The notes beneath the pieces are model-generated. The model saw nothing but the letters and a program-made list of their open reading frames with translations. It did not search any database and was not told where the DNA came from. From positions 1-7,745 of the IMG/VR virus record IMGVR_UViG_2671180921_000004: a DNA stretch of 7,745 nt. One strand, given 5' to 3'. Position numbers and translations under genes: made by a program. Positions 17-7,745 of the stretch are shown here, piece by piece. The first letter of the stretch is position 1. Every line of letters begins with the position of its first letter. This DNA is from a virus (taxonomy: Duplodnaviria > Heunggongvirae > Uroviricota > Caudoviricetes).

Positions 17-157
17 TTATCCATTTTGGGGAACTCCTGGCTGATTAAGTACGTCGATGAGTCGTTTCCATCCGTCACGTAATTTACGTGTGATTCGCTC
101 AAGTAAAGATTCGGAAGGGCAGCCAGCAACAGGCCACCCTGCAATGGCATATTGCAT
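17..157 (-). CDS. cIII: cIII-like regulatory protein (FtsH/HflB inhibitor that stabilises cII), 46 aa
   Basis: Not in the ORF track (under 60 aa). Minus-strand translation from the ATG at 157 gives MQYAIAGWPVAGCPSESLLERITRKLRDGWKRLIDVLNQPGVPQNG*, matching lambda cIII as I recall it almost residue for residue over the N-terminal 43 aa. A TAAGGAG Shine-Dalgarno lies about 6 nt upstream. Stop TAA is at 17-19 (plus-strand tta). Confidence 0.8.
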   Translation of the reverse strand: MQYAIAGWPVAGCPSESLLERITRKLRDGWKRLIDVLNQPGVPQNG

Positions 158-262
158 GGTGTGCTCCTTATTTACGCTTTAAATTGCTCCGTGTATTCAC
201 TCGTTGGAATGAATACACAGTGCAGTGTTTATTCTGTTGTTTATGCCAAAAATAAAGGCAGA

Positions 263-886
263 CTATGCGGCCTCGGAAGGAAGTCCAATCATCTTATTCA
301 AATCTTCTACCCGTAAAGCAGGAAGTGCTGTACTTGCTTTATCTGCTTCTTTTGGTAGCAATTCTTTGCTTTCAGGCCAAACTTCAATAAGTCGCTTAAC
401 TGTTGTGACTGAGTTCAAAGCAGCCCATACATTTGATTCGATATCCTTTTTCTTGTCTTCAAGTTTTTGTTGCAATGCGCAGATTTCATCAAACCTTTTT
501 GTTATTTCGTGTTCTGCGTCAAACATGCATTTATCTTTGGTCGGAGTAGGGAGCAATATATCTTCGCCGTTGCCGTCTTTCCCATATGAATGCCATCCAA
601 CCCTTCTGCCAGATACAGTCAGATAAATCGAAGTAGAACGAACATCGCATGAGTAAAATGAACATCCCATCTTTTCAAGTTCTTCACTTATAGCTACTAA
701 CCTGGATGATAACTGATCCACTTCATCAGTTTTCTTTTTACCGCCAAACGCAATAACTCTGGCGTCAAGTGCAAGCTGGTTCTTTAACTTTGTTACTTCT
801 TCAAGTTCAGTGAAAACCCCAGACTTAATTAAAGCGTTACGAGCGATTTCCTCTTTCATTCTCGTAGTTAAGCGGATTGATGACAT
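263..886 (-). CDS. hypothetical early-left (PL operon) accessory protein, 208 aa
   Basis: Long minus-strand ORF (track 263..946). The start was chosen at the internal ATG at 886 (MSSIRLTTRMKEE...), which is preceded by GAGAGGA; the longer track ORF would run to within 2 nt of the N stop. Same orientation as cIII and N. No family recognised from the sequence alone. Confidence 0.6.
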   Translation of the reverse strand: MSSIRLTTRMKEEIARNALIKSGVFTELEEVTKLKNQLALDARVIAFGGKKKTDEVDQLSSRLVAISEELEKMGCSFYSCDVRSTSIYLTVSGRRVGWHSYGKDGNGEDILLPTPTKDKCMFDAEHEITKRFDEICALQQKLEDKKKDIESNVWAALNSVTTVKRLIEVWPESKELLPKEADKASTALPALRVEDLNKMIGLPSEAA

Positions 887-947
887 ATTAATTCCTCTCA
901 AATAAGTGGTTTGCTGCCTAATTTCATTTTCTGGCGACCAACACAAG

Positions 948-1660: not shown

Positions 1661-2065
1661 TCACTTATTACTGTTCGTTTCCATGGGATTGGCCAAGAAA
1701 TCAAAATAAGGCAGAGTGAACCTACCAAGATTTGACATGAGGATAATTTGCTCGGCATATGTTTTTATATAGGGATATGCCATATTGGGAGCAATGGACC
1801 TTACCTCATATGATTTTGCCATTTCATGAGAAAAATCATCTTCTGACCGGAAGTCAAAGTCGTATGTGATGTCCATCTCAAGCCTGCCTTCAATAGTTAC
1901 GGAGGCAAAATATCTCACTCTAAATAGCTTTGAATCCTTCACATTAGTGTAAAGTTCATTATTTAGATTAACGGTTGTTTTTATGGCTTTTTTTGCTGTT
2001 GAATCGCCTTCTAGCCGTGTCATAACCAAGCGTTCAACTTTTTTGCTAATGAGTTCAATTTTCAT
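1661..2065 (-). CDS. SecB-like chaperone, third gene of a toxin-antitoxin-chaperone (TAC) cassette, 134 aa
   Basis: ORF track 1661..2065. Its start ATG overlaps the upstream gene's stop by 4 bp (ATGA), indicating translational coupling. The C-terminal region ...SIAPNMAYPYIKTYAEQIILMSNLGRFTLPYFDF... resembles the E. coli SecB segment ...[38 protein letters not shown]... as recalled. Size is similar to SecB. Product call is from memory-based similarity only. Confidence 0.6.
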   Translation of the reverse strand: MKIELISKKVERLVMTRLEGDSTAKKAIKTTVNLNNELYTNVKDSKLFRVRYFASVTIEGRLEMDITYDFDFRSEDDFSHEMAKSYEVRSIAPNMAYPYIKTYAEQIILMSNLGRFTLPYFDFLANPMETNSNK

Positions 2066-2718
2066 GGTAATAATAAGTAATTTCCGTCAGAAGTCATTTC
2101 GTCATTCAGGTTGCTAGCCGCTGTGAAACTTGATGACAAGTTACTTATCAAAGAAAAAACATTCCGTTTTTCTTTGCATTTGCCGTTACCCCTTACTGCG
2201 CTGAACAACATTTTTGAAAAGTAAGATTCTGTAGCCTTTTCAGCGAAATAAGCAGAAGGTGATGTGACGGCTGACTCACACCGAGCAATGACGCTAGTCA
2301 TGGCTGTTTCTTCTTCCTCTGCGTCAACTAGGCTCCATTCAATTGCGCTCATATCTTGAATTAAGATATCTGCAGGAATTCCAAGTCCGTCATGTAGTCT
2401 ACGGATCATTGAAAGACTTAATGGACGCTTACGATTTAAGACCTCAGATACTTTAGATGCTGAGCCAATGTATTGTTTCATATCGGCATAAGAGAGGCCT
2501 TGTTGATCCATACGGAACTTGATTGCTTCTATGGGATCTGGCTTGTCCATAGGGAACTCGCGTGACTCATAGTGCTCGATAAGCAAGCCTAGTAGTTCAA
2601 ACTCATCAAAATCTTCAGTTCCAGGTTGTAAATCACTAGACGCAAGTTCAATGAGCCTTTCCATAGCTGCAGCATGCTCTTCACTATTTTTAATGATGCG
2701 CCAGCTAGTTCGATTCAT
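2062..2718 (-). CDS. higA: HigA-family HTH (XRE-type) antitoxin with a ~96-aa C-terminal extension, 218 aa
   Basis: ORF track 2062..2718. Residues about 66-121 (IKFRMDQQGLSYADMKQYIGSASKVSEVLNRKRPLSLSMIRRLHDGLGIPADILI) align with the HTH end of E. coli HigA (...IRTLMDQYGLTLSDLPEIGSKSMVSRVLSGKRKLTLEHAKKLATRFGISPALF) as recalled. GGAGG lies 5 nt upstream of the ATG. 4-bp ATGA overlaps with the HigB stop upstream and the SecB-like start downstream. Confidence 0.8.
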   Translation of the reverse strand: MNRTSWRIIKNSEEHAAAMERLIELASSDLQPGTEDFDEFELLGLLIEHYESREFPMDKPDPIEAIKFRMDQQGLSYADMKQYIGSASKVSEVLNRKRPLSLSMIRRLHDGLGIPADILIQDMSAIEWSLVDAEEEETAMTSVIARCESAVTSPSAYFAEKATESYFSKMLFSAVRGNGKCKEKRNVFSLISNLSSSFTAASNLNDEMTSDGNYLLLP

Positions 2719-3002
2719 TTAAGCCTCCACTTGTCGTACTCTGCATGAGTTCCAACTCTTTCAACTATGACCATTCCTGCCTGGTAAACAACTTGGACAA
2801 CGAGCCGATAGTTATTGCCTTTTATATTAAAAATTACCCTGTTGTTAGGAAGGAAGTCGGCAGAATTAAATCTATTCCGTATGTCTTGAGTCGTTTTCCA
2901 GTTTTCTCTTATCACTTCATCATACCAAGAGTCTAAAGCCCCCTTGGCCTGATTGTGCTTCCGGCTAAAACTGTGAAGCTTCTCTACGTTTAAGACCTTC
3001 AT
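2715..3002 (-). CDS. higB: HigB-family toxin (RelE/ParE superfamily mRNA interferase), 95 aa
   Basis: ORF track 2715..3002. The segment NRVIFNIKGNNYRLVVQVVYQAGMVIVERVGTHAEYDKW aligns with E. coli HigB HYVFNVGGNELRVVAMVFFESQKCYIREVMTHKEYD as recalled. Toxin-first gene order is typical of higBA. Confidence 0.85.
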   Translation of the reverse strand: MKVLNVEKLHSFSRKHNQAKGALDSWYDEVIRENWKTTQDIRNRFNSADFLPNNRVIFNIKGNNYRLVVQVVYQAGMVIVERVGTHAEYDKWRLK

Positions 3003-4543: not shown

Positions 4544-5443
4544 ATGACAAATACAGCAAAAATACTCAACTTCGGCAGAGGTAACTTTGCCGGACAGGAG
4601 CGTAATGTGGCAGATCTCGATGATGGTTACGCCAGACTATCAAATATGCTGCTTGAGGCTTATTCAGGCGCAGATCTGACCAAGCGACAGTTTAAAGTGC
4701 TGCTTGCCATTCTGCGTAAAACCTATGGGTGGAATAAACCAATGGACAGAATCACCGATTCTCAACTTAGCGAGATTACAAAGTTACCCGTCAAACGGTG
4801 CAATGAAGCCAAGTTAGAACTCGTCAGAATGAATATTATCAAGCAGCAAGGCGGCATGTTTGGACCAAATAAAAACATCTCAGAATGGTGTATCCCTCAA
4901 AACGAGGGAAAATCCCCTAAAACGAGGGATAAAACATCCCTCAAATTGGGGGATTGCTATCCCTCAAAACAGGGGGACACAAAAGACACTATTACAAAAG
5001 AAAAAAGAAAAGATTATTCGTCCGAGAATTCTGGCGAATCCTCTGACCAGCCAGAAAACGATCTTTCTGTGGTTAAACCGGATGCTGCAATTCAGAGCGG
5101 CAGCAAGTGGGGAACAGCAGAAGACCTGACCGCCGCAGAGTGGATGTTTGACATGGTGAAGACCATCGCGCCATCAGCCAGAAAACCGAATTTTGCTGGG
5201 TGGGCTAACGATATCCGCCTGATGCGTGAACGTGACGGACGTAACCACCGCGATATGTGTGTGCTTTTCCGCTGGGCCTGCCAGGACAACTTCTGGTCCG
5301 GTAACGTGCTGAGTCCGGCCAAACTCCGCGACAAGTGGACCCAGCTCGAAATCAACCGTAACAAGCAACAGGCAGGCGTGACAGCCAGCAAACCAAAACT
5401 CGACCTGACAAACACTGACTGGATTTACGGGGTGGATTTATGA
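4544..5443 (+). CDS. O: replication initiation protein O (origin-binding), 299 aa
   Basis: Translation matches lambda O as recalled (MTNTAKILNFGRGNFAGQERNVADLDDGYARLSNMLLEAY...). AGGAG RBS upstream. Contains the ori iterons internally. Stop overlaps the P start (ATGA). Confidence 0.95.
   Translation: MTNTAKILNFGRGNFAGQERNVADLDDGYARLSNMLLEAYSGADLTKRQFKVLLAILRKTYGWNKPMDRITDSQLSEITKLPVKRCNEAKLELVRMNIIKQQGGMFGPNKNISEWCIPQNEGKSPKTRDKTSLKLGDCYPSKQGDTKDTITKEKRKDYSSENSGESSDQPENDLSVVKPDAAIQSGSKWGTAEDLTAAEWMFDMVKTIAPSARKPNFAGWANDIRLMRERDGRNHRDMCVLFRWACQDNFWSGNVLSPAKLRDKWTQLEINRNKQQAGVTASKPKLDLTNTDWIYGVDL
4892..5016. other. origin of replication (ori-lambda type): four ~19-bp iterons with internal dyad TCCCTC-N5-GAGGGA, followed by an AT-rich DNA-unwinding region
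   Basis: Iterons visible at about 4892-4910, 4911-4930, 4931-4955 and 4956-4980 (ATCCCTCAAAACGAGGGAA, ATCCCCTAAAACGAGGGAT, ATCCCTCAAATTGGGGGAT, ATCCCTCAAAACAGGGGGA), then AAAAGACACTATTACAAAAGAAAAAAGAAAAGATTA. Located inside the O coding sequence as in lambda. Confidence 0.85.
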
Positions 5444-6141
5444 AAAACATCGCCGCACAGATGGTTAACTTTGACCGTGAGCAGATGCGTCGGATCGCCA
5501 ACAACATGCCGGAACAGTACGACGAAAAGCTGCAGGTACAGCAGGTTGCGCAGATCATCAACGGTGTGTTCAGCCAGTTACTGGCAACTTTCCCGGCGAG
5601 TCTGGCTAACCGTGACCAGAACGAACTGAACGAAATCCGCCGCCAGTGGGTTCTGGCTTTCCGGGAAAACGGGATCACCACAATGGAACAGGTTAACGCA
5701 GGAATGCGCGTAGCCCGTCGGCAGAATCGACCATTTCTGCCATCACCCGGGCAGTTTGTTGCATGGTGCCGGGAAGAAGCATCCGTTATCGCCGGACTGC
5801 CAAACGTCAGCGAGCTGGTTGATATGGTTTACGAGTATTGCCGGAAGCGAGGCCTGTATCCGGATGCAGAGTCTTATCCGTGGAAATCGAACGCGCACTA
5901 CTGGCTGGTTACCAACCTGTATCAGAACATGCGGGCCAATGCGCTTACTGATGCGGAATTACGCCGTAAGGCCGCAGATGAGCTTGTCCATATGACTGCG
6001 AGAATTAACCGTGGTGAGGCGATCCCTGAACCAGTAAAACAACTTCCTGTCATGGGCGGTAGACCTCTAAATCGTGCACAGGCTCTGGCGAAGATCGCAG
6101 AACTCAAAGCTAAGTTCGGACTGAAAGGAGCAAGTGTATGA
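5440..6141 (+). CDS. P: replication protein P (DnaB helicase loader), 233 aa
   Basis: Translation matches lambda P as recalled (MKNIAAQMVNFDREQMRRIANNMPEQYDEK...). ATGA overlap with the O stop. Confidence 0.95.
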   Translation: MKNIAAQMVNFDREQMRRIANNMPEQYDEKLQVQQVAQIINGVFSQLLATFPASLANRDQNELNEIRRQWVLAFRENGITTMEQVNAGMRVARRQNRPFLPSPGQFVAWCREEASVIAGLPNVSELVDMVYEYCRKRGLYPDAESYPWKSNAHYWLVTNLYQNMRANALTDAELRRKAADELVHMTARINRGEAIPEPVKQLPVMGGRPLNRAQALAKIAELKAKFGLKGASV

Positions 6142-6428
6142 CGGGCAAAGAGGCAATTATTCATTACCTGGGGACGCATAATAGCTTCTGTGCGCCGGAC
6201 GTTGCCGCGCTAACAGGCGCAACAGTAACCAGCATAAATCAGGCCGCGGCTAAAATGGCACGGGCAGGTCTTCTGGTTATCGAAGGTAAGGTCTGGCGAA
6301 CGGTGTATTACCGGTTTGCTACCAAGGAAGAACGGGAAGGAAAGATGAGCACGAACCTAATTTTTAAGGAGTGTCGCCAGAGTGCCGCGATGAAACGGGT
6401 ATTGGCGGTATATGGAGTTAAAAGGTGA
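6138..6428 (+). CDS. ren: Ren protein (confers resistance to Rex exclusion in lambda), 96 aa
   Basis: Translation MTGKEAIIHYLGTHNSFCAPDVAALTGATVTSINQAAAKMARAG... matches lambda Ren as recalled. ATGA overlap with the P stop. Confidence 0.8.
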   Translation: MTGKEAIIHYLGTHNSFCAPDVAALTGATVTSINQAAAKMARAGLLVIEGKVWRTVYYRFATKEEREGKMSTNLIFKECRQSAAMKRVLAVYGVKR

Positions 6429-6453
6429 CCATCTACATCACTGAGCTAATAAC

Positions 6454-6486
6454 AGGCCTGCTGGTAATCGCAGGCCTTTTTATTTG
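6454..6486 (+). terminator. rho-independent terminator (tR2-like) downstream of ren
   Basis: Hairpin AGGCCTGC-tggtaatc-GCAGGCCT (8-bp perfect stem) followed by TTTTTATTT on the plus strand. Confidence 0.65.
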
Positions 6487-6500
6487 GGGGAGAGTAAATC

Positions 6501-6707
6501 GTGGTTGAGTTGATTTTTTCTGCATTGAGGATTCTCGGTGCTATGTGGATGGTGTCGACGTTCATTGCGGTTGTCGGAAGTTTTGTCCGGTTGGTAGGCG
6601 AAGGTAAAGACCTGGTGGGTGTGCTGTTCGGTAGCATTCTCCTGTGGGTGATTATCGGTGTTGCGCCTGTCGCTGTAGCAAAAATGGCGTGGCGTTTTGT
6701 TAGTTGA
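6501..6707 (+). CDS. small hydrophobic protein with two predicted transmembrane segments, 68 aa (GTG start)
   Basis: ORF track 6501..6707. Two hydrophobic stretches (ILGAMWMVSTFIAVVGSFV and LVGVLFGSILLWVIIGVAPVAVA). GGGGAGAG lies about 6 nt upstream of the GTG. Coding status is uncertain: short, non-ATG start. Confidence 0.4.
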   Translation: MVELIFSALRILGAMWMVSTFIAVVGSFVRLVGEGKDLVGVLFGSILLWVIIGVAPVAVAKMAWRFVS

Positions 6708-6714
6708 GGGGAAT

Positions 6715-6993
6715 ATGAGCGAGATCTACCGACAATTCGAAGAGTGGTGGTCAAAACACAAAAGCCCGTTCACGGAAGACGATGAGCTAAAAGAGTTTGC
6801 CTGGGAGATATGGCAGGCATCGCGAGCAACTATTGAACTGGATATCGACTGGCCCGAATCGAATGACGACTTTTGGAAAGATGGTGAAGAAGGTGCTTAT
6901 GCGATGGGTTATGAGGATGGGCGTGACAAAACGGTAATTGCAGTAATGAAAGCCATCAGGGCCGCAGGAATCAAAGAAAAGAATTTCGATTAA
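6715..6993 (+). CDS. hypothetical small acidic, Trp-rich protein, 92 aa
   Basis: Start taken at ATG 6715 (MSEIYRQFEEWW...), preceded by GAGGGG. About a quarter of residues are Asp/Glu. No recognised family. Confidence 0.55.
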   Translation: MSEIYRQFEEWWSKHKSPFTEDDELKEFAWEIWQASRATIELDIDWPESNDDFWKDGEEGAYAMGYEDGRDKTVIAVMKAIRAAGIKEKNFD

Positions 6994-7125
6994 GCAAATA
7001 TCACTTCAATAAATCGCTTTTAAGGCATCACAATCGCTCTGTAGTGAGGTAAGTGCGTGCAAGGAATGCCGATAAGCAGCGAGAATGAAAAATGCGTCAG
7101 AATGCGTTTGAGGAGGTTTTAAGAA

Positions 7126-7341
7126 ATGAGTACGGTAGCTGAACTTGTCAGGGCTAATTTTCGTGAAGAGTTGGTGCGTTGGTATCGGTATCGTTCATCG
7201 TCCAGTTTGCCGCTTGATGAGTTGTATGAGCATTCACCTGCCGCACGACGCTATCCGCGTGACCGTGTTCTTCGACGGTTGTTCAAACTCAACAATGAGT
7301 TTCAGCGCAACAGAATTATCCGGAGTCTGGATTTAAAGTGA
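7126..7341 (+). CDS. hypothetical small basic protein, 71 aa
   Basis: ORF track 7126..7341. Strong AGGAGG RBS about 9 nt upstream of the ATG. Arg-rich. No recognised family. Confidence 0.45.
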   Translation: MSTVAELVRANFREELVRWYRYRSSSSLPLDELYEHSPAARRYPRDRVLRRLFKLNNEFQRNRIIRSLDLK

Positions 7342-7351
7342 AGGAGTGAGC

Positions 7352-7534
7352 ATGAGCGAGCAAATATTCAGAGAGATTAAGCCACGGTTTTATCGCAAGG
7401 TAAGGGTGGTTTATCAGGACGAAAACAAGACCTGTGCATACGCCATTCATAATGGTCGGTGGTCAGTGTTCGACACCAAAAACTTCGAGAAGAACTTCGA
7501 GAGGATTAAGGGTGATGAGGAAACTAACATTTGA
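7352..7534 (+). CDS. hypothetical small protein, 60 aa
   Basis: Start taken at ATG 7352 (MSEQIFREIK...) with AAGGAG 5 nt upstream; the track ORF begins at the GTG at 7346. Its 3' end overlaps the ninB-like start by 20 nt. Confidence 0.45.
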   Translation: MSEQIFREIKPRFYRKVRVVYQDENKTCAYAIHNGRWSVFDTKNFEKNFERIKGDEETNI

Positions 7535-7745
7535 ACTAAGAAGCCCCATCCATCAGCAGAACGCCATTCCAGCTAGCCAGCAAATCCTGCCAGCCCCAAC
7601 CTAACCAACCGTAGTAACCATTCAGGACCGCAACCGTAGCTTAGACCACAACCGAAAGCTCCGAGATTGCCCTGGTGACGTCTCGCGTCAGGTTGAATGG
7701 CCGGATAGTTGTCTGGATGCCGAAAGCTGGACGTGTGTGTTTACC
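7515..7745 (+). pseudogene. ninB: ninB/Orf-family recombination protein homologue, interrupted by an in-frame TAA at 7602-7604 and truncated by the window end
   Basis: Frame from ATG 7515 reads MRKLTFELRSPIHQQNAIPASQQILPAPT*PTVVTIQDRNRSLDHNRKLRDCPGDVSRQVEWPDSCLDAESWTCVFT, versus lambda NinB MKKLTFEIRSPAHQQNAIHAVQQILPDPTKPIVVTIQERNRSLDQNRKLWACLGDVSRQVEWHGRWLDAESWKCVFT as recalled. The stop replaces the Lys codon at position 30. Not in the ORF track because of the stop. Confidence 0.5.

What the first reader, a model, noticed from the sequence alone, without database searches (positions are those of the whole stretch)
6501..6993. Two small nin-region ORFs of unknown function: a two-TM membrane peptide and an acidic Trp-rich protein
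Directly after the tR2-like terminator comes a 68-aa double-TM hydrophobic ORF (GTG start) and then a 92-aa protein with about 25% Asp/Glu. Small membrane proteins in phage early regions can be exclusion or toxic peptides, and small acidic proteins are frequently DNA mimics or anti-defence factors. Neither matches a family I recognise.
Basis: inference. Interest (0 to 1): 0.4.

Follow-up and report, generated by a model that had tools for sequence, protein, structure and literature searches.

The report
Two uncharacterised lambdoid phage accessory genes
Right after the tR2 terminator this lambdoid prophage carries two real, conserved small genes, a 68-residue membrane hairpin protein and a 92-residue acidic protein of the catalogued Phage_phiTE_015 family; both are common in enterobacterial phages, neither has a known function, and the finding is ordinary.

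Summary
A tR2-like terminator (6454-6485) is followed by a GTG-started 68-aa ORF with two hydrophobic stretches (6501-6707). An ATG-started 92-aa ORF follows (6715-6993; 25% Asp/Glu, 6 Trp, pI 4.4).

Both are real genes under purifying selection. ORF1 has dN/dS 0.21-0.31 between divergent types. It keeps 68 codons in 83 of 86 loci. ORF2 has dN/dS 0.21.

Both belong to catalogued but uncharacterised families, contrary to "neither matches a family".
- ORF1 is PHROG 1165. It is found only in Escherichia and Salmonella lambdoid and P22-like phages and occurs in about 8% of complete E. coli genomes. It is not "NinA".
- ORF2 is Pfam PF26207 (Phage_phiTE_015) / PHROG 343, with 480 clusters at 50% identity across Enterobacterales and Pseudomonas phages.

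The two genes are independent modules. ORF1 often sits directly before ninB, and the 92-aa ORF2 type usually follows tR2 with no ORF1.

ORF2 is a mosaic of two exchangeable modules joined at a conserved WQASRAAIE hinge and closed by an IRAAGIKVK tail. The acidic Trp-rich part is one cassette, not a family trait.

No fold, sequence, defence-library or literature link to any function was found. My functional proposals are inference only: a lytic-phase inner-membrane modulator and a modular protein binder. Interest is low to moderate.

The parts
6454..6485 (+). tR2-like intrinsic terminator: stem AGGCCTGC / GCAGGCCT, 8-nt loop, then TTTTATTT
   Evidence: Pattern scan and sequence. The same element is annotated tR2 in HK620, 933W and Lahn1. 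It lies directly upstream of ORF1 in essentially all 86 loci.
6486..6494 (+). Shine-Dalgarno GGGGGAGAG for ORF1, 6 nt before the GTG
   Evidence: Sequence. The motif is conserved in 85 of 86 loci with at most 1-2 changes.
6501..6707 (+). ORF1: 68-aa predicted helical-hairpin inner-membrane protein, PHROG 1165. Hydrophobic stretches at about residues 11-29 and 38-60, loop GEGKD, basic C-terminal AKMAWRFVS.
6706..6711 (+). Shine-Dalgarno GAGGGG for ORF2, overlapping the ORF1 stop codon (TGA 6705-6707). This arrangement allows translational coupling.
   Evidence: Sequence. Analogous stop/SD overlaps occur before whatever gene follows ORF1 in other loci.
6715..6993 (+). ORF2: 92-aa acidic cytoplasmic protein, Pfam PF26207 Phage_phiTE_015 / PHROG 343
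6715..6810 (+). ORF2 N-module (residues 1-32): conserved M..S..QFE.W start plus a variable segment. Predicted helix-turn-helix hairpin (H3-15, H23-38).
   Evidence: This N-module (N19) is found with 5 different C-modules.
6811..6837 (+). ORF2 conserved hinge WQASRATIE (residues 33-41), the joint at which modules are exchanged
   Evidence: W33 is invariant and A35, S36, R37 nearly invariant across 123 diverse members. Module table.
6838..6954 (+). ORF2 C-module 'C0' (residues 42-80, LDIDWPESNDDFWKDGEEGAYAMGYEDGRDKTVIAVMKA): the acidic Trp-rich cassette
   Evidence: Near-identical behind 19 of 21 different N-modules. Lower-confidence loop followed by a long helix in the AF2 model.
6955..6981 (+). 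ORF2 conserved tail IRAAGIKEK (residues 81-89)
   Evidence: I81, A84, G85 and K89 are invariant in alignment A3. G85 is invariant and K89 nearly invariant in A5.

Best explanation
ORF1 and ORF2 are two real, separately mobile, delayed-early accessory genes. They occupy the variable slot between the tR2 terminator and ninB of a lambdoid prophage.

Shown:
- Both are protein-coding and under purifying selection.
- Both belong to catalogued, uncharacterised phage families: PHROG 1165 for ORF1, and PF26207 Phage_phiTE_015 / PHROG 343 for ORF2.
- They occur independently of each other.
- No sigma-70-like promoter match lies on their strand in 6000-7745. They lie immediately downstream of tR2 in the pR operon.

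Inferred from established lambda biology: they are transcribed only when N-modified RNA polymerase reads through tR2. That means in lytic growth or after induction, not in the lysogen.

ORF1 (inferred):
- It is a two-helix hairpin inserted in the inner membrane, with both ends probably cytoplasmic.
- It is made at low level from a GTG start.
- Its conserved second helix and C-terminal AKMAWRF tail contact a host inner-membrane component during lytic growth.
- My best guess for the effect is protection of the infected cell's membrane functions, for example blocking entry of superinfecting DNA in the manner of T4 Imm.

ORF2 (inferred):
- It is a small soluble alpha-helical protein with no enzymatic motif.
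- A conserved scaffold (N-terminal QFE.W helix, WQASRAAIE hinge, IRAAGIKVK tail) carries two exchangeable cassettes.
- I think it is a stoichiometric binder of a host or defence protein, with the cassettes setting the target specificity.
For: Coding and selection:
- ORF1 dN/dS is 0.21-0.31 in the annotated frame against 0.45-1.5 in the other frames, between types that are 57-63% identical in DNA.
- ORF1 keeps 68 codons in 83 of 86 loci, always behind tR2 plus the SD. Salmonella homologues have ATG at the same position.
- ORF2 dN/dS is 0.21 against 0.39-1.6 in the other frames.

Families:
- PHROG 1165 is matched over 1-68 of 68 positions (E 1e-34), and PHROG 343 at E 6e-28.
- PF26207 Phage_phiTE_015 is recorded on the exact window protein and on 75 of 78 homologues.
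- phiTE_015 itself is a family member.
- 480 representatives at 50% identity reach E <= 1e-3.

Independence:
- 53 of 86 ORF1 loci lack the ORF2 C-module.
- In one search, ORF1 is followed by ORF2-family mosaics (about two thirds of the intact loci), by NinB directly (about 25), or by DUF7301 (7).
- 65 of 72 loci with the 92-aa ORF2 type have it directly behind tR2 with no ORF1. 933W is an example.
- The block recurs behind O/P/ren, O/DnaB and DnaC-like replication modules.

Membrane hairpin:
- KD19 peaks are 2.03 and 2.54 with a polar loop between them.
- The C-terminal half is more conserved: 12 against 6 invariant columns.

Mosaic:
- 21 N-modules and 7 C-modules give 31 combinations.

Structure:
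- AF2 gives pLDDT 82.5 and pTM 0.61 for a mainly helical model (H3-15, H23-38, H52-55, H61-83) with two short strands.

Transcription context:
- The terminator is found and no promoter-like site lies on the + strand in 6000-7745.
Against: - No experiment or homologue of known function supports any of the functional steps.
- Pfam (local copy), NCBIfam and PADLOC give nothing for either ORF.
- Literature searches return nothing.
- ORF1 selection is only moderate, and among close relatives dN/dS is 0.53 and does not single out the frame.
- The Hessa-type insertion energy of both ORF1 helices is near zero, computed with scale values recalled from memory.
- ORF1 topology rests on a weak positive-inside bias.
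- Conserved ends of ORF2 could partly reflect DNA-level recombination linkers rather than protein function.
- Transcription only by tR2 read-through is inferred from lambda. It was not measured here.
Confidence: 0.55

Rival explanations
1. ORF2 is a DNA-mimic anti-restriction or anti-defence protein (Ocr/ArdA-like in principle). Its acidic surface would imitate DNA and titrate a host nuclease or defence sensor early in infection.
For: - 25% D+E and pI 4.4.
- Delayed-early position.
- In phage phiTE the family member lies next to a Lar-like restriction-alleviation gene.
- The family is mostly acidic, with a median pI of 5.0.
- Cassette shuffling resembles an arms-race pattern.
Against: - The charge is concentrated in one exchangeable cassette (C0). 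Other cassettes and members are far less acidic: median D+E is 17%, and 35% of representatives have pI above 5.5.
- At 92 residues with a low-confidence acidic loop, it is not an obvious rigid DNA-shaped surface.
Confidence: 0.12
2. ORF1 is a membrane-damaging peptide, holin-like or type-I-toxin-like. It would depolarise the host membrane for host shut-off or lysis timing.
For: - It is a small, very hydrophobic two-helix peptide with a basic C-terminus.
- The weak GTG start is conserved in E. coli phages, as expected for a dose-sensitive product.
- It is 68 aa, the same size class as pinholins (the pinholin size is from my own knowledge).
Against: - It sits in the early nin operon, not in the lysis cassette downstream of Q.
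- No antisense RNA or Rfam toxin-antitoxin element is present.
- It is carried in up to 4 copies per genome.
- It has no sequence relation to any holin or toxin family.
Confidence: 0.12
3. ORF1 and ORF2 work together as a two-component unit, a membrane anchor plus a soluble partner.
For: - They are adjacent, and the stop codon overlaps the next SD, which allows translational coupling.
- The pair is present in about 210 complete E. coli genomes.
- The exact block recurs behind different replication modules.
Against: - Each is commonly found without the other. 53 of 86 ORF1 loci lack the ORF2 C-module, and about 25 have NinB directly after ORF1.
- 65 of 72 loci of the 92-aa ORF2 type lack ORF1.
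- The ORF2 family extends to Pseudomonas, Pectobacterium, Yersinia and Klebsiella phages. ORF1 was found only in Escherichia and Salmonella.
Confidence: 0.04
4. ORF1 is not a gene. On this view the stretch is conserved as DNA or RNA, for example as a spacer or leader for nin-operon expression, and the open frame is incidental.
For: - Among close relatives dN/dS is 0.53, and another frame scores similarly.
- The antisense frame is also open in all homologues.
- ORF1 is unannotated in HK620 and H-19B.
Against: - At 57-63% DNA identity the frame, the exact length, the start position and the hydrophobic pattern are all kept. The annotated frame also has clearly the lowest dN/dS, 0.21-0.31.
- The SD is conserved at correct spacing.
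- Differences peak at third codon positions (39-40, against 30-31 at first and 17-18 at second positions).
Confidence: 0.04

Closest known systems
Pfam PF26207 Phage_phiTE_015 / PHROG 343 (founder: hypothetical protein phiTE_015 of Pectobacterium phage phiTE; also phage D3 Orf41, ST64T orf-86, 933W orf5/L0091)
   Same: ORF2 is a member.
- The family hit is recorded on the exact protein.
- It shares the consensus M..SR.QFE.W ... W.AWQASRAAIE ... AIRAAGIKVK.
- It has the same length class (about 80-105 aa).
- It is likewise placed among early genes.
   Different: Nothing sets it apart beyond its particular module combination: N-module WWSKHKSPFTEDDELKEF plus the acidic C0 cassette. The family has no known function.
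PHROG 1165 (unnamed 68-aa hypothetical proteins: HK022_58, SPN9CC_0027, Stx2 phage 86 orf70; unannotated in HK620 and H-19B)
   Same: ORF1 is a full-length member. It has the same length and the same position directly after tR2.
   Different: None of note. It is 88-95% identical to the HK022, HK75, HK629/HK630 and Stx2-phage copies. The family has no known function.
NinA of P22 / HK620 / HK630 / SPN9CC
   Same: It is the first named 'nin' reading frame after the replication genes, in the same few hundred bases.
   Different: NinA as annotated is a 27-aa frame that spans the tR2 hairpin itself and ends where ORF1 begins. ORF1 is a different, downstream reading frame.
T4 Imm and other small phage inner-membrane exclusion proteins (comparison from my own knowledge)
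   Same: Small early-expressed phage protein with two hydrophobic helices. This is the model for my functional guess.
   Different: There is no sequence similarity, the phage type differs, and no exclusion phenotype has been tested.
DNA-mimic anti-restriction proteins such as T7 Ocr and ArdA (comparison from my own knowledge)
   Same: Small, acidic, early phage protein.
   Different: There is no fold or sequence similarity. The acidity is confined to an exchangeable cassette and is not conserved across the family.

Membership tests
Pfam PF26207 Phage_phiTE_015 | Hit to the family HMM | tested here: met
   A precomputed PF26207 hit is recorded on the exact 92-aa window protein and on 75 of 78 homologues. 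The model is absent from the local Pfam copy, so I could not rescore it.
Pfam PF26207 Phage_phiTE_015 | Homology to the founder protein phiTE_015 | tested here: met
   An Erwinia prophage member found with the ORF2 profile (L098) hits phiTE_015 by tblastn. The match has E 5e-6, 32% identity and 93% coverage. The link is through an intermediate sequence, not direct.
Pfam PF26207 Phage_phiTE_015 | Conserved residues of the family (F8, W33, A35-S36-R37, G85, K89 in ORF2 numbering) | tested here: met
   All are present in ORF2. They are invariant or at least 90% conserved in 123 diverse members.
PHROG 343 | Profile match | tested here: met
   E 5.9e-28, residues 1-92 against profile positions 36-127 of 135.
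PHROG 1165 | Full-length profile match | tested here: met
   E 1.2e-34, residues 1-68 against profile positions 1-68 of 68.
NinA (P22/HK620 sense) | The short reading frame that overlaps the tR2 hairpin, directly after the replication gene | tested here: not met
   In HK620, HK630 and SPN9CC, NinA is an 84-nt CDS across tR2. The ORF1 homologue lies downstream of it and is unannotated or called a hypothetical protein.
Holin / pinholin | Encoded in the lysis cassette next to an endolysin, downstream of Q | tested here: not met
   ORF1 lies upstream of ninB and Q in every locus examined. No holin family is hit.
Type I toxin (Hok/Ldr/TisB-like) | Known toxin family or cognate antisense RNA | tested here: not met
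   No Rfam family is found in 6000-7745, and no Pfam, NCBIfam or PADLOC hit.
DNA-mimic anti-restriction proteins | High negative charge conserved across the family | tested here: not met
   ORF2 itself has 25% D+E. Family representatives have a median of 17%, and 35% of them have pI above 5.5. Most of ORF2's excess charge lies in the exchangeable C0 cassette.
DNA-mimic anti-restriction proteins | Fold related to a known mimic (Ocr, ArdA, others) | tested here: not met
DNA-mimic anti-restriction proteins | Inhibition of a restriction or defence system | not testable with these tools
   This needs plating assays.
Superinfection-exclusion membrane proteins (Imm-like) | Blocks DNA entry of a superinfecting phage | not testable with these tools
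   Only a resemblance in size, hydrophobic pattern and timing is available.

The most novel reading that the evidence does not exclude
The Phage_phiTE_015 family, including ORF2, could be a widespread modular counter-defence or host-takeover scaffold. Its exchangeable cassettes, such as the acidic Trp-rich C0 cassette here, would each neutralise a different host protein and would be reshuffled by recombination at the conserved WQASRAAIE hinge. ORF1 could be a previously unrecognised lytic-phase inner-membrane protein of lambdoid phages that excludes superinfecting phages or disarms a membrane-based abortive-infection system.
Probability: 0.2. Interest if true: 0.55.

Novelty: already known. 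Interest (0 to 1): 0.22.

Why it matters
As it stands the finding adds little. Both genes are already in public databases as hypothetical proteins of named but uncharacterised families.

The useful points are practical.
1. ORF1 is a well-conserved gene still missing from, or truncated in, the annotation of classic phages. It is absent from the HK620 and H-19B annotation and shortened in HK630. It should not be confused with NinA.
2. ORF2 belongs to a large family: 480 clusters at 50% identity, in temperate and probably virulent phages of Enterobacterales and Pseudomonas. Its clear two-cassette mosaic architecture makes it a reasonable candidate for anti-defence screens.
3. The slot between tR2 and ninB is a recombination hot spot for small accessory genes.

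If either protein proved to act on host defence or on superinfection, it would fill a gap in the otherwise well-studied lambda nin region.

Tried and rejected
Searches that returned nothing useful:
- The local Pfam copy gave nothing for ORF1 and only a sub-threshold chance hit for ORF2 (His_Phos_1, E 0.068).
- NCBIfam gave nothing, even for the E. coli homologue that PGAP names "phiTE_015 family protein".
- PADLOC gave nothing for ORF1, ORF2, DUF7301 or the 60-aa ORF.
- A Pfam scan of 123 diverse ORF2 relatives found no shared domain, including none for the Cys-rich N-terminal extensions.
- A PDB sequence-profile search gave 0 hits at E <= 10.
- Literature searches found no paper on either family. 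Terms tried were phiTE_015, PF26207, the PHROG ids, DUF7301, L0091 with 933W, four peptide motifs, and nin region with anti-defense.

Ideas rejected:
- "ORF1 = NinA". This was suggested by feature names under tblastn hits. I rejected it after reading the annotations, where NinA is the 27-aa frame across tR2.
- ORF1 and ORF2 as a functional pair, rejected on distribution.

Inconclusive or failed:
- dN/dS on closely related ORF1 copies was inconclusive (0.53, with another frame similar). I had to redo it on divergent types.
- A genome-collection scan with the very diverse alignment A5 failed for lack of a conserved stretch. Repeating it with A3 gave only 8 loci.
- ORF1 was not modelled by AF2.

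Full report
**Context**

The window is the immunity, replication and early nin segment of a lambdoid prophage related to Stx1a-converting phages and BP-4795. The best matches have 97% identity over 64-73% of the window, and no record covers it all.

On the + strand the genes run cro, cII, O (4544-5443), P (5440-6141) and a Ren-like gene (6138-6428; PHROG 142). The finding follows these.

**Observation**

- An intrinsic-terminator pattern lies at 6454-6477: an 8-bp stem with 6 G-C pairs and an 8-nt loop, followed by TTTTATTT. It is the only + strand terminator-like site in 6000-7745. The same element is annotated tR2 in HK620, 933W, Lahn1 and Nil3.
- GGGGGAGAG (6486-6494) lies 6 nt before a GTG at 6501 that opens a 68-codon frame ending at 6707.
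- The TGA of that frame overlaps a GAGGGG Shine-Dalgarno for an ATG at 6715, which opens a 92-codon frame ending at 6993.
- ORF1 has pI 10 and GRAVY 1.5. Its two hydrophobic stretches have 19-residue Kyte-Doolittle means of 2.03 (residues 11-29) and 2.54 (residues 41-59), above the classical 1.6 threshold. The loop between them is RLVGEGKD.
- ORF2 has 23 Asp+Glu in 92 residues (25%), six Trp and pI 4.4.

**Are they genes?**

ORF1:
- It has more than 190 homologue clusters at 90% identity, almost all exactly 68 aa.
- In 86 fetched loci, 83 keep 68 codons with a GTG start. All sit directly behind the tR2 T-tract and the GGGGGAG(A/G)G motif.
- Two divergent types exist: the HK620 type (about 53-56% amino-acid identity) and the Salmonella SPN9CC type (44%). 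They keep the length, the start position (ATG in the Salmonella type) and the hydrophobic pattern.
- Between types that are 57-63% identical in DNA, the annotated frame has dN/dS 0.21-0.31. The other five frames give 0.45-1.5. Differences peak at third codon positions.
- Among close relatives the test is uninformative (0.53), so constraint is moderate. That is usual for small membrane proteins.
- The C-terminal half (loop GKD, LFG, WV.IG, AKMAWRF) is more conserved than the first helix.

ORF2:
- Fourteen distinct 92-codon sequences give dN/dS 0.21 in frame, against 0.39-1.6 in the other frames.

I conclude both are real protein-coding genes. Translation itself has not been observed.

**Families**

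ORF1:
- It matches PHROG 1165 end to end (E 1e-34).
- It matches nothing in Pfam, NCBIfam or PADLOC.
- Its homologues are restricted to Escherichia and Salmonella.
- They occur in HK022 (HK022_58), HK75, HK629, HK630, mEp235, mEpX1, mEp213, HK620, H-19B, Stx2 phage 86, many Stx2a phages and P22-like Salmonella phages.
- They occur in 414-502 of 5426 complete E. coli genomes, with up to four copies per genome.

ORF1 is not NinA. In HK620, HK630 and SPN9CC, NinA is the 84-nt frame lying across the tR2 hairpin. The ORF1 homologue lies just downstream. It is unannotated in HK620 and H-19B and shortened to an internal ATG in HK630.

ORF2:
- It matches PHROG 343 (E 6e-28).
- The exact protein carries a precomputed hit to Pfam PF26207, named Phage_phiTE_015. 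That model is newer than the local Pfam copy, which explains the empty local scan.
- A profile search of 1.84 billion representatives found 480 family members at E <= 1e-3.
- tblastn with an Erwinia prophage member reaches phages of Salmonella, Escherichia, Klebsiella, Hafnia, Yersinia, Pectobacterium and Pseudomonas. These include phiTE_015 itself, noted by its depositors as similar to phage D3 Orf41, and 90-kb Pseudomonas myoviruses.

So the statement that neither ORF matches a family is wrong. Both families are nonetheless annotated "unknown function".

**Architecture of the locus**

The two genes are independent modules.
- Of 86 loci with ORF1, 53 lack the ORF2 C-terminal module.
- The gene after ORF1 is an ORF2-family mosaic (about two thirds of the intact loci), NinB directly (about 25), or DUF7301 after a short scar (7).
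- Conversely, the 92-aa ORF2 type lies directly behind tR2 with no ORF1 in 65 of 72 usable IMG/VR loci, as in 933W (orf5/L0091). ORF1 precedes it in only 3.
- The exact block ORF1, ORF2, DUF7301, (60 aa), NinB recurs behind O/P/ren and O/DnaB replication modules. The ORF1 plus ORF2 pair also lies behind a DnaC-like module. The block therefore travels as a cassette in a recombination hot spot.
- In prophages of Atlantibacter, Pluralibacter, Pseudocitrobacter and Erwinia, an ORF2-family gene again sits one or two small genes upstream of ninB. In phiTE and the Pseudomonas phages the context differs.

**Architecture of ORF2**

The family consensus is M..SR.QFE.W, a variable stretch often containing G.Y, then W.AWQASRAAIE(I/L)(E/D)LP, a second variable stretch of 20-40 residues, then AIRAAGIKVK.

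In the E. coli and Salmonella set I could separate 21 N-modules and 7 C-modules, occurring in 31 combinations.
- The window's N-module pairs with five different C-modules.
- Its C-module (LDIDWPESNDDFWKDGEEGAYAMGYEDGRDKTVIAVMKA) appears nearly unchanged behind 19 N-modules.
- That count is inflated because the search was seeded with this protein.

Some members carry a further about 36-aa N-terminal extension with CxxC...CxC, or another unrelated extension.

Family representatives have a median of 17% D+E and a median pI of 5.0, and 35% have pI above 5.5.

**Structure**

- With a shallow alignment, AF2 gave pLDDT 75.
- With 123 diverse sequences it gave pLDDT 82.5 and pTM 0.61. The model has helices 3-15, 23-38, 52-55 and 61-83, plus two short strands at the hinge and the tail. 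The acidic loop (residues about 45-60) is the least confident part.
- Foldseek against PDB and BFVD gave nothing at E <= 0.001. The best BFVD hit is an unnamed 89-aa protein at E 0.025.
- The PDB sequence-profile search was empty.

There is thus no structural lead to function.

**How it most likely works**

Shown: both are conserved coding genes in the pR operon, directly downstream of tR2. No promoter-like site lies on their strand in 6000-7745.

Inferred from established lambda biology: they are delayed-early genes expressed only when N-modified polymerase reads through tR2. They therefore act in lytic growth, not as lysogen-expressed morons.

For ORF1 I infer a helical hairpin in the inner membrane.
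- The flanking charges are N-terminal R10, loop net zero, and C-terminal K61 and R65. This weakly favours both ends in the cytoplasm.
- The conserved GTG start and the better-conserved second helix and tail suggest a low-abundance protein that contacts a host membrane component.
- My best guess is an Imm-like protective or exclusion role during lytic growth (about 25%). A membrane-damaging role is the main alternative (about 12%).

For ORF2 I infer a stoichiometric protein binder whose cassettes set specificity. Counter-defence is plausible, but the specific DNA-mimic idea is weakly supported (about 12%).

None of these functional steps is demonstrated.

**Comparison with the known, and novelty**

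Both proteins are ordinary members of existing, uncharacterised families. Near-identical proteins are already deposited many times. The exact ORF2 sequence is indexed in 168 blocks of the assembly collection. I therefore rate the finding as already known at the level of sequence and family, with function unknown.

A specialist would not be surprised by it. The modest value lies in three points: the clarified annotation (ORF1 is not NinA and is missing from several reference phages), the evidence that the two are not a pair, and the two-cassette mosaic of the Phage_phiTE_015 family. The last makes that family a sensible candidate for anti-defence screening.

**Verdict**

Interest is 0.22.

The most novel reading not excluded is a modular counter-defence scaffold plus a new lytic-phase membrane exclusion protein. 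I give it about 20% probability and an interest of about 0.55 if true.

Noticed in passing
window 7515-7745 (+): The ninB homologue has an in-frame TAA at codon 30 (MRKLTFELRSPIHQQNAIPASQQILPAPT*), with similarity continuing in the same frame after it. NinB therefore looks disrupted here. 933W likewise annotates two ninB-homologous fragments (orf8 and orf9). Sibling loci with the identical ORF1-ORF2-DUF7301 block have an intact 146-aa NinB.
   Followed up: partly
window 1661-3002 (-): A defence-like cassette lies between N and cI, where lambda has rexAB. It has three parts:
- a HigB-like toxin matching PD-Lambda-2_A (2715-3002, E 2.5e-42);
- an HTH protein matching only the first 125 of 402 positions of PD-Lambda-2_B (2062-2718, E 3.8e-50);
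- a 134-aa protein matching PD-T4-9_C (1661-2065, E 3e-11).
It looks like a shortened or hybrid PD-Lambda-2-type system.
   Followed up: partly
window 263-946 (-): A 227-aa protein of the Nmad5 family (nucleotide modification associated domain 5, E 9e-71) sits between cIII and N in the pL operon.
   Followed up: no
window 112-170 (-) and 17-157 (-): The lambda cIII thermoregulator RNA element (Rfam RF01804, 88.5 bits) overlaps the start of a cIII gene (Pfam Lambda_CIII, E 3e-30).
   Followed up: no
window 7126-7341 (+) and 7352-7534 (+): Two further small uncharacterised nin-slot genes follow ORF2: a DUF7301 protein (71 aa, E 4.5e-26; PHROG 1785) and a 60-aa protein (PHROG 9493, E 2.5e-47). 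Many loci have a small gene starting MSM... immediately before ninB.
   Followed up: partly
window 6994-7020 (+); loci such as L031 and L034: The sequence just after the ORF2 stop (AAGCAAATATCACTTCAATAAATCGC) recurs in 9 loci. In those loci ORF1 is followed by ATGAAGCAAATATCACTTCAATAA, that is, the first codons of a ninB-type gene fused to this spacer. The shared AAGCAAATAT looks like a short-homology recombination junction marking gain or loss of the ORF2 cassette.
   Followed up: partly
window 6446-6754 (-): A 102-aa antisense frame spans ORF1. The matching antisense frame has no stop in the four ORF1 homologues compared (window, HK022, HK620, SPN9CC), but it shows weaker constraint (dN/dS 0.63-0.77). 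It is probably a by-product of ORF1's codon composition rather than a gene.
   Followed up: partly
L002 2791-3225; P0241, P0243, P0244, P0268, P0295, P0297: A subset of Phage_phiTE_015 family members carries an about 36-aa N-terminal extension with a CxxCxGTG...CDC pattern, which looks like a zinc ribbon. Others carry an unrelated extension (MRWAIKHKSGRTLFVTSDEF...). No Pfam domain matched these.
   Followed up: partly
L091, L092, L094 (genome contigs): Enterobacterial lambdoid-phage contigs carrying these genes are binned in MAGs labelled Collinsella, Bacillota and Geobacteraceae. This is most likely metagenome binning contamination rather than true host range.
   Followed up: no
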